From the IMG/VR virus record IMGVR_UViG_2648501392_000022, positions 1 to 21,150 of that record: a DNA stretch of 21,150 nt, one strand, 5' to 3'. A program made the position numbers. This DNA comes from a virus. Its lineage: Duplodnaviria > Heunggongvirae > Uroviricota > Caudoviricetes. Shown in pieces: positions 9,001 to 12,000 of this stretch; position 1 is the stretch's first letter, and each line of letters begins with the position of its first letter.

Positions 9001-12000
9001 AACCGGTGGCATTAACAGCAACACGCATTCCTGAGCGGATCCACCGGCAGGCATTGCAGGTCCTGTTGTTGTACCGATGCCGACGGATATTTCCGCATCG
9101 GATACAGCGCACCGGATATCTCAGTCTGAAGGTTAACCGTCGCTGGCGGCTGTTATCGAAAGACGACGGCCGGAACTGGGAAGTAATGAGTCATGAACGT
9201 TATTCGGGAGAAATAAAGAAATGATCGACAACCGCACCGCCAGCACCATTGACCAGGCATTACAGAAACATGATACACCCGTCGGCCCGTTATTTTTTGT
9301 AACACGCCACGGAAGAACAAAAAAATGCCTCACCCGAAAAACGGCAATTCGTTACCTGGCATTCTTTATGACCACCCGCGCTTTTGAACGTTCAGGATTC
9401 CGACAACGCTATCCTGACAAGCGTTTTATCTTCAACAGGAATGAGATATGGAAACGTGGAGAATCAACCACAGAGTATACCCGCGCACACCAGCGAACAA
9501 TCAGACGACTGCGCAGACTCATCGCCAGGAAACAGTATACAGAAAAATGGTTCAGAAAATATGACACATGGAGCGCCGGATATTACGAACTGATGGCAAC
9601 AAAACCATTCTGACGTAAACGAAATTAACCATGACGCAATTAAATAAGGCAAGCCGAATACATCAGGAGGACCATGAACATTTATTTCAGAATAGTTATA
9701 TCACTGGCAATTATCACATGTATTTACGGATTAATCGTTCCGGCCCTCATATCAATGAAGGATACGGTAGCAGTGATTTCTGGCTTTGCTCTGGCGTGTC
9801 TGACCCCGCCCTGCATTTATGCCATTTATAAGGGTCTTTCTTTTTCTAAGGATAAAAGATGAAAAAATTACTTTTTGCTTTAGCCCTTGTTCTGCCGACC
9901 ATTGGCCTTGTCGGTTGCGATCGCGTTGAGCCTGGTAATGTGGGCATCAAAGTAAACAAACTGGGCGACGATAAAGGCGTCGGTGAAGTGGTCGGTGTTG
10001 GGCGCTACTGGACGGGATGGAACACTGAGGTTTACATCTTCCCGACCTTTAAGCAGATGAAGACCTACGATGATCCATTCAGTTTCCAGATGAGTGACGG
10101 TACAACCATCGGCTATCACATCGGCGTGGCCTACAAAGTTGATCCATCCAAAGTTACCACAGTCTTTCAGACCTACCGCAAAGGCGTGGACGACATTACC
10201 GACACCGACCTGCGCCAGAAGATAGCCGACGCACTCAACCGACTGGCCAGCAAAATGACCACCGACAAATTTATCGACGGCGGCAAGTCTGAGCTGCTGG
10301 ATGCAGCTCTTAAAGACATTCAGGAAGAAATGACGCCCATCGGTATTCAGGTAATGAGCCTCTCATATGTGGGTAAGCCGGAGTACCCGCCTACTGTTAT
10401 CGACAGCATTAATGCCAAAGTCACGGCGAACCAGAAAACCCTGCAACGCGAGCAGGAAGTAAAACAGCGCGAAGCGGAAGCCAACATGTTGCGCGCGGAA
10501 GCTGCCGGACAGGCAGATGCGATTCGCACAAAAGCCCAGGCCGAAGCCGATGCTATTCGTTTACGCGGTGAAGCTCTGCGCCAGAACCCCGGTGTTATGG
10601 AGCTGGAAGCCATCAACAAGTGGAACGGTACACTGCCGCAATACATGACCAGCGGTGCCAACACACCATTTATTCAGGTTAAGTAATACATATGCCCGGT
10701 ATTACACGCCGGGCTGTCTGGAGATAAAAATGAATATTGTAACCATCAACAACAAACAGTTTCCGGTAATCGAATATCGCGGTCAGCGTGTTGTGACATT
10801 TGCAATAATTGATGACGTCCACCAGCGCCCGGAAGGTACCGCCCGTGCTGCGTTTAACCGCAACCGTTCTCACTTTATCGAAGGGGTGGATTTTCTTGAA
10901 ATGACTGCGGACGTAATACGTACGGAGTCACTTTCTGATGCCTTTGCCGCGCGAACTGCCAAAGGGATCATTCTTTTCGAGTCTGGTTACCTGATGTTGA
11001 CGAAGCCTTTTAACGATGCTCTTGCATGGCAGGTTCAGCGCGAACTGGTTAACAGCTATTTCCGAACTCACGCGCCGCTGACGGAAATGGAGATGATCGC
11101 TGCAATGGCCGCCGATGCCGTTCGCCAGCAGAAGCGCCTGAGTCATGTTGAAGAGAAGATCGAAACGGTCACCAAAGCTGTGGAGAACATCAAACGCGGC
11201 ACAATGCGCACCGGATATGTCGGTTACCGCCAGGTGGTAGCCAAAAGCGGAATGAGTGACGCCAAGTGTCGGAATCTGGTCAACGCCTACCACATCCCTA
11301 CCGACACGCACGAATTTATGACTCCGGACGGTCTGTTGTCTCGCAGGGCTGTCGTCGAGCTTGAGACATTTATGGCGGCGTTCCACCAAATGATGTCAGA
11401 GGCTGAACCACGCGGCACACGCTGGTATCACCCGAAGATGGGGCTTTTTCAGGTAATCGGATGGGAGGATAAAGCATGATCATCCAGTCAAAACTTATTC
11501 GCGCCGCTCTGGTGTGCGCTGCTAAAAACGACGTTCGTTATTACCTGAACGGTCTTCACATCACGCCAAAACATATTGAGGCAACCAATGGTTTCGTAGC
11601 ACTGCGCATGACTCACGGCATCCGGACGAAGAAAAACATCATTGTCCAGTTCGAAGGTGGCGTCCCGGCCAAAGCCGAAACGACAGAGCTGATTTTTAGT
11701 AAAGAGCCGATCCTGTTCATCGCGACCAGTTTCAGCGCCGGCTGTCCATTACCGGCATTAAATTGGTGGACGGTTGTTTTCCGGATTTGGAACGCATCAT
11801 TCCGAAAAAATTTGACCTCTGTACACACCCGGTGATCCAGGCGGGTTACCTGAGTTATCCAGAGAAGATGTTTGGTCGTGAGCGTAAATTTATTCCCGTC
11901 CAGTTACGTTCCTCCGGTGACGGGCAAGCGGTCAGAATTCAGTTTGATTCCATCATCAACTCAATGTATGGCAATCCTGAATTTGTTGTGATGCCTTGTC

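What the first reader, a model, noticed from the sequence alone, without database searches (positions are those of the whole stretch)
10730..11479. ORF6N/KilA-N-type protein translationally coupled to the DnaN-like gene
The ATGA overlap at 11476-11479 couples a DNA-binding-type N-terminal domain protein to the clamp-like gene, suggesting one functional unit.
Basis: inference. Interest (0 to 1): 0.4.

Follow-up and report, generated by a model that had tools for sequence, protein, structure and literature searches.

The report
Prophage regulator gene beside broken mini-clamp
This is an ordinary early gene of an E. coli prophage that encodes a two-domain DNA-binding 'Bro-network' protein. Its 4-base overlap with the next gene is the usual packing style of this operon, and that next gene, a shortened sliding-clamp look-alike, is broken here by a 1-base deletion.

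Summary
An ATG-to-TGA ORF at 10730-11479 encodes a 249-aa protein with a Pfam ORF6N domain, and ATGA at 11476-11479 overlaps the next start codon.

- Five of 16 junctions in this early-left operon are ATGA overlaps.
- In relatives the same 3' end (GGGAGG inside codons G-W-E-D) abuts at least six different downstream genes.
- The downstream gene has a DnaN fold (about 1.5 domains, 189 aa when intact), but here a 1-bp deletion between 11712 and 11713 makes it a pseudogene.

The association is asymmetric. About 81% of mini-clamp loci have a Bro-network gene directly upstream, in six domain architectures. Only 37% of the closest ORF6N-protein loci carry the clamp, and the complete phages phi467 and Fraca lack it. 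Near-identical clamps follow different upstream proteins.

The C-terminal 137 aa matches no Pfam model. It is predicted as a coiled-coil helix plus a MerR/excisionase-like winged helix, and it is also found fused to Rha, Bro-N, KilA-N and AntA domains.

Best reading: a Bro-network early regulator acting alone here, with the mini-clamp a facultative cassette. A real two-protein module is not excluded (about 0.15). Interest is low to moderate.

The parts
10720..10723 (+). Shine-Dalgarno-like GGAG, 6 nt upstream of the ORF6N gene start
   Evidence: Read directly from the sequence.
10730..11479 (+). ORF6N / Bro-network protein gene (249 aa, ATG to TGA)
   Evidence: PHROG phrog_1726 'anti-repressor' matches aa 4-228 at E=7e-70. 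1753 homologous clusters.
10766..11005 (+). ORF6N domain (aa 13-92), a predicted beta-hairpin plus helix DNA-binding module
   Evidence: Pfam PF10543, E=1.6e-12. AF2 secondary structure. Weak Foldseek similarity to the Ski/Dachshund DNA-binding domain, E=0.1, probability 0.97.
11084..11197 (+). Long central helix (aa 119-156), coiled-coil-like, a possible oligomerisation element
   Evidence: AF2 model, helix H119-156. The profile gives only weak, non-significant matches to designed coiled coils.
11216..11476 (+). C-terminal domain 'CT1' (aa 163-249): beta-alpha-alpha-beta-beta-alpha winged-helix-like core plus a beta-hairpin tail (RWYHPKMGLFQVIGWEDKA)
11463..11469 (+). GGGAGGA, the Shine-Dalgarno sequence for the downstream gene, lying inside codons G-W-E-D of the ORF6N gene
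   Evidence: Sequence. The same GG.TGGGAGG precedes six different downstream genes in relatives.
11476..11479 (+). ATGA stop/start overlap
   Evidence: Five of the 16 junctions in the operon are of this type.
11476..12044 (+). Mini-clamp (truncated DnaN-like) gene, a pseudogene here: a 1-bp deletion between 11712 and 11713 splits it into ORFs 11476-11835 and 11763-12044
   Evidence: Alignment to the intact 189-aa allele. AF2 pLDDT 87. Foldseek to DnaN, E=4e-6. Profile against E. coli DnaN residues 136-293 plus 356-365, E=1e-10.
12041..12163 (+). 40-aa ORF that overlaps the clamp gene's stop by ATGA. In one relative (L109) it follows the ORF6N gene directly.

Best explanation
The gene at 10730-11479 encodes a member of the 'Bro network' of phage DNA-interactive proteins, which swap domains freely. 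It has three parts: an N-terminal ORF6N (KilA-N-type) module, a long coiled-coil-like helix, and a C-terminal domain with no Pfam model that is predicted to be a MerR/excisionase-like winged helix.

It is transcribed with the early-left operon of a phi467/P27-like lambdoid prophage. The gene order is cI-like repressor, HTH protein, small ORFs, ParE-like, SPFH, ORF6N, mini-clamp, DUF4222, xis, int.

Its most likely action (inferred, not shown) is as an oligomeric, sequence-specific DNA-binding early regulator, or a regulator that interferes with a repressor, made after derepression.

The ATGA overlap is generic operon compaction. The last codons (G-W-E-D) supply the ribosome-binding site for whatever gene follows. 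The truncated DnaN-like 'mini-clamp' behind it is a separate, facultative cassette. In temperate Enterobacterales phages that cassette nearly always sits behind a Bro-network gene, but the Bro-network gene does not need it. In this window a 1-bp deletion has inactivated it, so the ORF6N protein acts alone here.
For: Identity and architecture:
- Pfam ORF6N and a nearly full-length phrog_1726 match (aa 4-228 of 249).
- AF2 model with pLDDT 79.
- The CT domain is fused to Rha (12), ORF6N (3), Bro-N (2), KilA-N (2) and AntA (1) among 29 representatives. This matches the domain-swapping Bro network described in PMC10111431.

Operon context:
- Annotated relatives.
- No sigma-70-like promoter anywhere in 9600-12800, and the only + strand terminator-like site (12239-12254) lies downstream of both genes, inside DUF4222.

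The overlap is generic:
- Five of 16 junctions are ATGA.
- Six different downstream genes are joined to the same 3' end.
- In L109 the clamp is cleanly absent and the ATGA junction is retained.

The clamp is facultative:
- It lies downstream in 25 of 68 (37%) ORF6N+CT1 loci, 37 of 66 (56%) loci found with the Bro-N+CT2 query, and 13 of 77 (17%) Rha+CT1 loci.
- phi467 and Fraca have no clamp-like ORF.
- The CT domain is 83-92% identical to the window's whether or not the clamp is present.
- One clamp cluster at 97% identity or more follows three upstream architectures, and one at 90% or more follows six upstream types, five of them Bro-network architectures.

The clamp is a pseudogene here.
Against: - No experiment exists on this protein or any close homologue. 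'Anti-repressor' is only a PHROG label passed on by homology.
- The strong one-sided association is more than I can prove to be mere synteny. About 81% of clamp loci have a Bro-network gene directly upstream, in six domain architectures. The adjacency persists at about 50% amino-acid identity between E. coli and Xenorhabdus, Photorhabdus and Providencia.
- All the loci sampled belong to related lambdoid prophages, so I have no unbiased baseline for how often a Bro-network gene occupies this slot.
Confidence: 0.65

Rival explanations
1. The two genes form a genuine two-protein module. The Bro-network DNA-binding protein targets or recruits the mini-clamp, which keeps the DnaN residues lining the clamp-binding-motif pocket. 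This would resemble the way T4 gp33/gp55 and Mu MuC use a sliding clamp for transcription. Alternatively the mini-clamp acts as a decoy for host clamp-binding proteins at sites chosen by its partner. On this reading the window holds a decayed copy of the module.
For: - About 81% of 104 clamp-like loci have a Bro-network gene directly upstream (72% with a CT1 or CT2 domain), almost always overlapping by 4 nt, across six N/C-domain combinations.
- Where a small unrelated gene intervenes, an ORF6N-like or CT hit often lies 1-1.5 kb upstream.
- The pairing persists at about 50% identity across genera.
- Breakpoints fall between the N and C domains, leaving CT and clamp together (N 66%, CT 96%, clamp 98%).
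- Lar-like Zn-ribbon proteins upstream of the clamp carry a tail, EHPA(V/M)GRFQ, that resembles the CT1 tail. Between two genera it differs by four synonymous and three conservative changes.
- The mini-clamp keeps RYYLNG, ATxGH, KLVDGRFPD..RV.P and VVMP.R of DnaN.
- There is a precedent for phage transcription factors using the clamp (PMC12867686).
Against: - Most CT proteins lack a clamp neighbour, and two complete phage genomes (phi467, Fraca) lack it entirely.
- There is no co-variation: near-identical clamps follow CT1, CT2 and Lar-like proteins.
- The CT tail is equally conserved with and without the clamp.
- None of the 83 upstream proteins has a consensus QL[SD]LF motif. The only Qx[DE][LM]F match lies inside the folded Bro-N domain.
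- The tail is predicted to be a folded beta-hairpin with pLDDT about 90, not a free peptide.
- In the three phages outside this prophage group whose neighbourhoods were checked, clamp-like genes have unrelated neighbours.
- The clamp gene is broken in this window.
Confidence: 0.15
2. The protein is a classical antirepressor. It binds and inactivates a phage repressor protein, its own or that of a co-resident prophage, rather than acting through DNA.
For: - The best PHROG families are all labelled anti-repressor (phrog_1726, 4608, 7755, 1760 and 63 'Ant').
- Some CT-domain relatives carry AntA N-domains.
- Trans-acting antirepressors among co-resident prophages are documented in Salmonella (PMC3121763, title and abstract listed).
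Against: - No P22_AR_N, P22_AR_C, ANT or AntA Pfam domain is present in this protein.
- Both structured ends look like DNA-binding folds.
- The gene has no promoter of its own and sits deep inside the repressor-controlled early-left operon. From general knowledge, characterised antirepressors are usually regulated separately.
- The label is annotation transfer only.
Confidence: 0.2
3. The ORF is a remnant or mis-called reading frame with no function in a decaying prophage.
For: The neighbouring gene is frameshifted, and the E110019 copy of the prophage carries an IS3 insertion nearby.
Against: The ORF is full length, and its length is conserved (247-251 aa) across Enterobacterales down to about 50-57% identity, with invariant residues spread over both domains. 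It is also present in the complete phage genomes Fraca and phi467.
Confidence: 0.03

Closest known systems
Bro network of domain-swapping phage and satellite DNA-interactive proteins (Pfam ORF6N, KilA-N, Bro-N, Phage_pRha, AntA, ANT, P22_AR; as treated in PMC10111431)
   Same: It has an N-terminal ORF6N module. Its C-terminal module is found behind Rha, Bro-N, KilA-N and AntA N-domains in relatives. It sits in an early or regulatory region of a temperate phage.
   Different: The C-terminal 137 aa matches none of the Pfam C-terminal modules, and only 45 clusters at 50% identity exist. No member of this sub-family has been studied experimentally.
P22 Ant-type and AntA/AntB antirepressors
   Same: The PHROG annotation, the two-module architecture and the temperate-phage context.
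   Different: No P22_AR or ANT domains. The gene lies inside the repressor-controlled early-left operon rather than under separate control. Both ends look like DNA-binding folds.
MerR/excisionase-type winged-helix DNA-binding domains (e.g. TorI, Pukovnik Xis, RacA, pSK1 Par)
   Different: No sequence similarity is detectable. The domain carries an extra conserved beta-hairpin tail with the motif HPxMGxF. The scores are marginal.
Bacterial beta sliding clamp DnaN (for the downstream gene)
   Same: The fold (Foldseek probability 1.0). A profile match to E. coli DnaN residues 136-293 and 356-365, with RYYLNG, KLVDGRFPD and VVMPxR conserved.
   Different: Half the size (189 against 366 aa). It lacks domain I and DnaN residues 294-355, so it cannot form the canonical six-domain ring by homodimerising the way DnaN does. 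It scores below the curated thresholds of TIGR00663 and PF02767. It is frameshifted here.
Clamp-dependent phage transcription (T4 gp45 with gp33/gp55; Mu MuC with host beta clamp, PMC12867686)
   Same: A phage DNA-binding regulator is genetically associated with a clamp-type protein.
   Different: This is an analogy only. No consensus clamp-binding motif was found, no interaction has been tested, and the clamp-like protein here is truncated and dispensable in relatives.

Membership tests
ORF6N domain family (Pfam PF10543, KilA-N-type) | HMM match above the curated gathering score | tested here: met
   48 bits against a cutoff of 27.8, E=1.6e-12, aa 13-92 covering profile positions 3-85 of 86.
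ORF6N domain family (Pfam PF10543, KilA-N-type) | An alpha/beta DNA-binding fold comparable with a solved relative | tested here: inconclusive
   AF2 gives beta-hairpins plus helices at pLDDT 66-88. The best Foldseek hit is the Ski/Dachshund domain at E=0.1, probability 0.97. No KilA-N-type structure surfaced.
Bro network (domain-swapping phage DNA-interactive proteins) | One of the network's N-terminal modules joined to a C-terminal module that recurs behind other network N-modules | tested here: met
   The CT domain is found with Rha (12), ORF6N (3), Bro-N (2), KilA-N (2) and AntA (1) among 29 representatives. Mosaic breakpoints lie between the N and C domains.
Functional antirepressor (P22 Ant-type) | Presence of P22_AR_N/C, ANT or AntA domains | tested here: not met
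   No such Pfam hit, even at E of 10 or less on the C-terminal part.
Functional antirepressor (P22 Ant-type) | Binds and inactivates a phage repressor | not testable with these tools
   Needs binding or induction assays.
Functional antirepressor (P22 Ant-type) | Expression controlled separately from the main immunity repressor | tested here: not met
   The gene is embedded in the early-left operon downstream of the cI-like gene. No promoter-like site was found in 9600-12800. This is a consensus scan only.
Conserved, translationally coupled functional gene pair | Stop/start overlap | tested here: met
   ATGA at 11476-11479. However, five of the 16 junctions in the operon are the same.
Conserved, translationally coupled functional gene pair | Adjacency conserved in related elements, in both directions | tested here: inconclusive
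   From clamp to Bro-network gene, about 81%. From ORF6N+CT1 to clamp, 37%; from the CT2 set, 56%; from Rha+CT1, 17%. Two complete phages lack the clamp.
Conserved, translationally coupled functional gene pair | Partner co-variation or specificity | tested here: not met
   Clamps in one cluster at 97% identity or more follow CT1, CT2 and, in a second such cluster, Lar-like upstream proteins. CT identity is the same with and without the clamp.
Conserved, translationally coupled functional gene pair | Both genes intact in this window | tested here: not met
   A 1-bp deletion between 11712 and 11713 in the clamp-like gene.
Beta sliding clamp DnaN (downstream gene) | Three clamp domains (about 366 aa) and scores above the TIGR00663 / PF02767 cutoffs | tested here: not met
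   189 aa. TIGR00663 gives 19 bits against 137.65, and PF02767 gives 17.4 against 27. The alignment covers only DnaN 136-293 and 356-365.
Beta sliding clamp DnaN (downstream gene) | DNA-clamp fold | tested here: met
   AF2 pLDDT 87, pTM 0.82. DnaN chains fill Foldseek ranks 1-43, with E down to 3.7e-6.
MerR/excisionase-type winged helix (C-terminal domain) | Structural superposition on solved members | tested here: inconclusive

The most novel reading that the evidence does not exclude
Temperate Enterobacterales phages may carry a recurrent two-gene module: a Bro-network DNA-binding protein followed by a truncated DnaN that keeps the clamp's peptide-binding pocket. In this reading the DNA-binding protein positions the mini-clamp on phage or host DNA, or the conserved hydrophobic-G-x-F tail of the upstream protein docks into that pocket or into host DnaN. 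The purpose would be to redirect or sequester clamp-binding replication and repair proteins, or to couple transcription to the clamp as in T4 and Mu. The window would then hold a recently inactivated copy.
Probability: 0.15. Interest if true: 0.6.

Novelty: new member of a known kind. Interest (0 to 1): 0.3.

Why it matters
On its own the gene is a routine accessory or regulatory gene of a lambdoid prophage, already annotated in RefSeq and PHROGs. Two by-products are mildly useful.

1. Its C-terminal 137 aa define a small Bro-network module with no Pfam model. The module is probably a MerR/Xis-like winged helix and could be added to domain libraries.
2. A truncated DnaN that keeps the pocket residues recurs directly behind Bro-network genes in temperate Enterobacterales phages.

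If that pairing reflects a physical partnership, it would be a further case of phage regulators exploiting sliding-clamp biology. If it does not, it is a clear example of why stop/start overlaps in phage operons should not be read as evidence of functional coupling.

Tried and rejected
- Pfam and NCBIfam on the C-terminal 149 aa gave nothing significant. The best was Snapin_Pallidin at E=0.06, which reflects the coiled coil.
- A profile of the CT family against PDB sequences matched only designed coiled coils at E above 0.1.
- Foldseek of the full model against PDB gave no hit with E of 0.001 or less.
- PADLOC defence models found no hit for the ORF6N protein, the mini-clamp, SPFH or neighbouring proteins, so a known defence system is not supported.
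- I considered a clamp-binding motif in the upstream proteins. There is no QL[SD]LF. 'QADLF' occurs only inside the Bro-N fold. This was rejected as evidence.
- I considered co-variation between the CT domain and the clamp. None was found.
- The first attempt to scan genomes with an 18-sequence clamp alignment failed because it had no conserved stretch. I repeated it with 14 sequences.
- A literature search for phrog_3007, phrog_1726 and the two WP accession numbers returned nothing.
- The PHROG label 'RusA-like Holliday junction resolvase' for the mini-clamp family (phrog_3007) contradicts the fold and profile evidence. I treat it as a mis-annotation.
- The longer GTG start at 10655 (274 aa) was rejected. 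It overlaps the end of the SPFH gene, homologues start at MNxVTINN, and PGAP uses the ATG at 10730.
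Full report
OBSERVATION. The window has an ATG at 10730 and a TGA at 11477-11479, giving a 249-aa ORF. GGAG lies at 10720-10723. Pfam ORF6N (PF10543) matches aa 13-92 at E=1.6e-12, 48 bits against a cutoff of 27.8. 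The sequence 9800-12500 is 100% identical to a prophage of E. coli E110019, where the gene is annotated 'ORF6N domain-containing protein'. ATGA at 11476-11479 overlaps the stop with the start of the next gene. The ORF is not a chance frame: 1753 homologous 90%-identity clusters exist, with conserved length down to about 50-57% identity in Xenorhabdus, Photorhabdus, Providencia and Morganella.

THE NEIGHBOUR IS BROKEN HERE. In E. coli JNEC-KY202 the downstream gene is an intact 189-aa 'beta clamp domain-containing protein'. The window lacks one G between 11712 and 11713 (GATC-CTG against GATCGCTG). That splits the gene into ORFs 11476-11835 and 11763-12044. The same deletion is in E110019, where it is annotated 'frameshifted', and in five IMG/VR contigs. 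Every other copy inspected is intact. The site is not a homopolymer, and the deletion recurs in separate assemblies, so it is a real allele of one lineage.

The clamp assignment itself is sound. An AF2 model of an 82%-identical homologue has pLDDT 87 and pTM 0.82. DnaN chains fill Foldseek ranks 1-43, with E down to 3.7e-6 and probability 1.0. The family profile hits E. coli DnaN at E=1e-10, aligning positions 5-154 with DnaN 136-293 and 'NPEFVVMPCR' with DnaN 356-365. It is therefore about 1.5 clamp domains, lacking domain I and residues 294-355, and it scores below the curated cutoffs of TIGR00663 and PF02767. The PHROG label 'RusA-like resolvase' is contradicted by this evidence.

CONTEXT. 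The gene lies in the early-left operon of a lambdoid prophage. The order is LexA/cI-like repressor (6647-7339), HTH protein, small ORFs, ParE-like toxin, phrog_1886, a 62-aa membrane protein plus SPFH (9674-10686), ORF6N, mini-clamp, a 40-aa ORF, DUF4222, xis-like, integrase (12733-13911). On the other side of the repressor lie cro-like and cII-position genes, a DEAD-box helicase and a toprim protein. The Stx phage phi467 and phage Fraca have similar early-left operons, and phi467 also shares the helicase/toprim replication genes. No sigma-70-like promoter was found anywhere in 9600-12800. The only + strand terminator-like site (12239-12254) lies downstream of both genes, inside DUF4222, so the two genes are consistent with one transcription unit.

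IS THE OVERLAP INFORMATIVE? No. Five of the 16 junctions in this operon are 4-nt ATGA overlaps, one is a 1-nt overlap, and most of the rest are gaps of 8 nt or less. In relatives the ORF6N gene ends with the same ...G-W-E-(D/G)... codons (GG.TGGGAGG, a Shine-Dalgarno sequence; 11463-11469 here). It is joined at -4, -1 or +2 nt to at least six unrelated downstream genes: the mini-clamp, a 123-aa protein, a 112-aa protein, an xis-like gene, an 87-aa protein, and the 40-aa-ORF homologue. In locus L109 the clamp gene is cleanly absent and the ATGA junction joins the ORF6N gene directly to the gene that follows the clamp in the window. The clamp therefore behaves as a discrete cassette. Because the clamp gene has its own strong ribosome-binding site, coupling is possible but not required (inference).

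CO-OCCURRENCE, FROM THE ORF6N SIDE. In complete E. coli genomes, megablast finds the ORF6N gene in 66 genomes, the clamp gene in 60, and the junction at 80% coverage or more in 57. Protein-level sampling across genera gives a different picture. Of the 68 IMG/VR loci among the 80 best ORF6N-protein matches that have enough downstream sequence, 25 (37%) have the clamp and 43 (63%) do not. Yet the C-terminal domain in the clamp-less loci is 83-92% identical to the window's, as high as in the clamp-bearing ones. A clamp profile finds nothing, even at E of 10 or less, in the complete genomes of phi467 and Fraca. In Stx phages a Rha-plus-same-C-terminal-domain protein sits in the early-right operon with no clamp nearby. 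Klebsiella prophages also lack it. For the other architectures the clamp follows in 37 of 66 loci found with the Bro-N+CT2 query and in 13 of 77 Rha+CT1 loci.

CO-OCCURRENCE, FROM THE CLAMP SIDE. I classified the gene immediately upstream of the clamp in 104 loci: 23 species-representative genomes, 78 IMG/VR loci and 3 hand-picked loci. The counts were:
- ORF6N+CT1: 41
- Rha+CT1: 16
- Bro-N+CT2: 13
- Rha+CT2: 5
- ORF6N plus two other C-termini: 9
- small unrelated proteins (Lar-like Zn-ribbon, DUF5406 and others): 20

So about 81% have a Bro-network gene directly upstream, nearly always with the 4-nt overlap. In several of the exceptions an ORF6N-like or CT hit lies 1-1.5 kb upstream. The pairing persists at about 50% identity: Xenorhabdus and Photorhabdus, and Providencia phage PSTCR3, where CT is 49% and the clamp about 31% identical. 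Mosaic breakpoints fall between the N and C domains (N 66%, CT 96%, clamp 98%).

Three results weaken a specific partnership.
- One clamp cluster of chained links at 97% identity or more follows Bro-N+CT2, ORF6N+CT1 and Rha+CT2. A second follows a Lar-like protein and ORF6N+CT1. A cluster at 90% or more has six upstream types.
- Other operon genes (phrog_1737, phrog_1886, ParE-like) are also shared by most of these loci, so much of the adjacency may be inherited synteny.
- In the three phages outside this prophage group whose neighbourhoods I checked (DS8, Vibrio R19R, Pseudoalteromonas C7), the clamp-like gene has unrelated neighbours. tblastn also finds distant relatives of the mini-clamp (about 23-39% identity) in roughly 220 phage records.

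WHAT THE PROTEIN IS. The C-terminal 137 aa has no Pfam or NCBIfam match. phrog_6610, of unknown function, covers aa 122-247, and phrog_1726 'anti-repressor' covers nearly the whole protein (aa 4-228). Against 1.84 billion representatives at 50% identity, the domain finds only 45 clusters, almost always at the C-terminus of 230-290-aa proteins. Their N-terminal domains are Rha (12), ORF6N (3), Bro-N (2), KilA-N (2) and AntA (1). This is the domain-swapping 'Bro network' described in PMC10111431, whose members are mostly DNA-binding regulators.

The AF2 model (51-sequence alignment, pLDDT 79, pTM 0.41) shows:
- an alpha/beta N-domain (aa 1-111);
- one long helix (aa 119-156);
- a beta-alpha-alpha-beta-beta-alpha unit (aa 163-224);
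- a beta-hairpin tail (aa 226-240).

MECHANISM. Shown: the domain composition, the operon position, the facultative neighbour and the broken neighbour. Inferred: the protein is an oligomeric DNA-binding early regulator made after derepression. A classical antirepressor role, binding a repressor protein, is a weaker alternative. The protein lacks the Ant-type domains, and it sits inside the repressor-controlled operon without a promoter of its own. No defence-system model matches.

THE MOST NOVEL READING NOT EXCLUDED. The mini-clamp keeps DnaN motifs (RYYLNG, ATxGH, KLVDGRFPD..RV.P, VVMPxR). From my knowledge of beta-clamp structures, these line the clamp-binding-motif pocket. The CT1, CT2 and Lar-like upstream proteins share a tail of the form HPx(M/F/V)GxF. 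Phage regulators that use the clamp are known: Mu MuC and T4 gp33/gp55 (PMC12867686). Against this, there is no consensus QL[SD]LF, the tail is predicted to be folded, and it is equally conserved without the clamp. I put this reading at about 0.15.

VERDICT. The gene is a new member of a known kind, a Bro-network protein with a C-terminal module that has no Pfam model. Its overlap with the next gene is generic, and its recurrent neighbour, a truncated DnaN, is a pseudogene in this window. Interest is 0.3.

Noticed in passing
window 11476-12044 (deletion between 11712 and 11713): The DnaN-like gene is a pseudogene here through a 1-bp deletion. The same allele is in E. coli E110019 and five IMG/VR contigs. 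All other copies checked are intact.
   Followed up: yes
intact allele L001:10677-11246; alignments A2 and A5: The 189-aa mini-clamp aligns to E. coli DnaN 136-293 plus the C-terminal strand 356-365. It keeps RYYLNG, ATxGH, KLVDGRFPD..RV.P and VVMPxR, so it looks like a DnaN stripped of domain I and most of domain III while keeping pocket-lining segments. PHROGs labels the family 'RusA-like resolvase', which appears to be wrong. tblastn also finds distant relatives (about 23-39% identity) in roughly 220 phage records.
   Followed up: partly
L144:2750-3004, L145, L018:3750-4004: Lar-like Zn-ribbon proteins directly upstream of the mini-clamp carry a C-terminal tail, EHPA(V/M)GRFQ(I/V)(I/V), that resembles the CT1 tail YHPKMGLFQVI. 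Between two genera the tail differs by four synonymous and three conservative changes. It could be a recombination scar or a selected peptide.
   Followed up: partly
L109 (IMG/VR UViG 2825473869_000007), around 3747: The mini-clamp gene is precisely absent. The ORF6N gene's ATGA junction leads straight into the homologue of the 40-aa ORF that follows the clamp in the window. This is cassette-like gain or loss at the ATGA junctions.
   Followed up: partly
window 676-737 (+) and 738-928 (-): Rfam matches above gathering score: AgvB (anti-GcvB sRNA, 96.5 bits) and STnc100 (144.7 bits), next to each other at the left end of the window.
   Followed up: no
window 15604-18993 (-): An AIDA-type autotransporter adhesin split into at least four ORFs: an autotransporter beta-domain fragment at 15604-15930 and AIDA-repeat ORFs at 15959-17134, 17192-17470 and 17467-18993. 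It is probably a disrupted gene, located outside the prophage beyond the integrase.
   Followed up: no
window 8819-9224 (+): A 71-aa ORF (8819-9034) overlaps by 29 nt a GTG-started 72-aa ORF (9006-9224) that RefSeq calls 'ParE family toxin-like protein'. This may be a small toxin-antitoxin pair inside the early-left operon.
   Followed up: no
window 9674-10686 (+): A 62-aa predicted membrane protein overlaps by ATGA an SPFH/Band-7 lipoprotein-like gene (Pfam E=8e-31). The pair travels together in relatives (memb62 and SPFH co-occur) but is absent from many otherwise syntenic prophages.
   Followed up: partly
L002 (E. coli E110019) 5460-6673, compared with window about 12163-12170: The complete-genome copy of this prophage in E110019 has an IS3-family element inserted downstream of the 40-aa ORF. 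The window lacks it, so the window comes from a different assembly or strain that carries the same frameshift allele.
   Followed up: no
window 13953-14720 (-) and 19777-20568 (-): A 255-aa ORF with no Pfam or PADLOC match sits immediately outside the integrase gene. A DUF5508 protein (E=2e-177) lies further on. Neither was examined.
   Followed up: no
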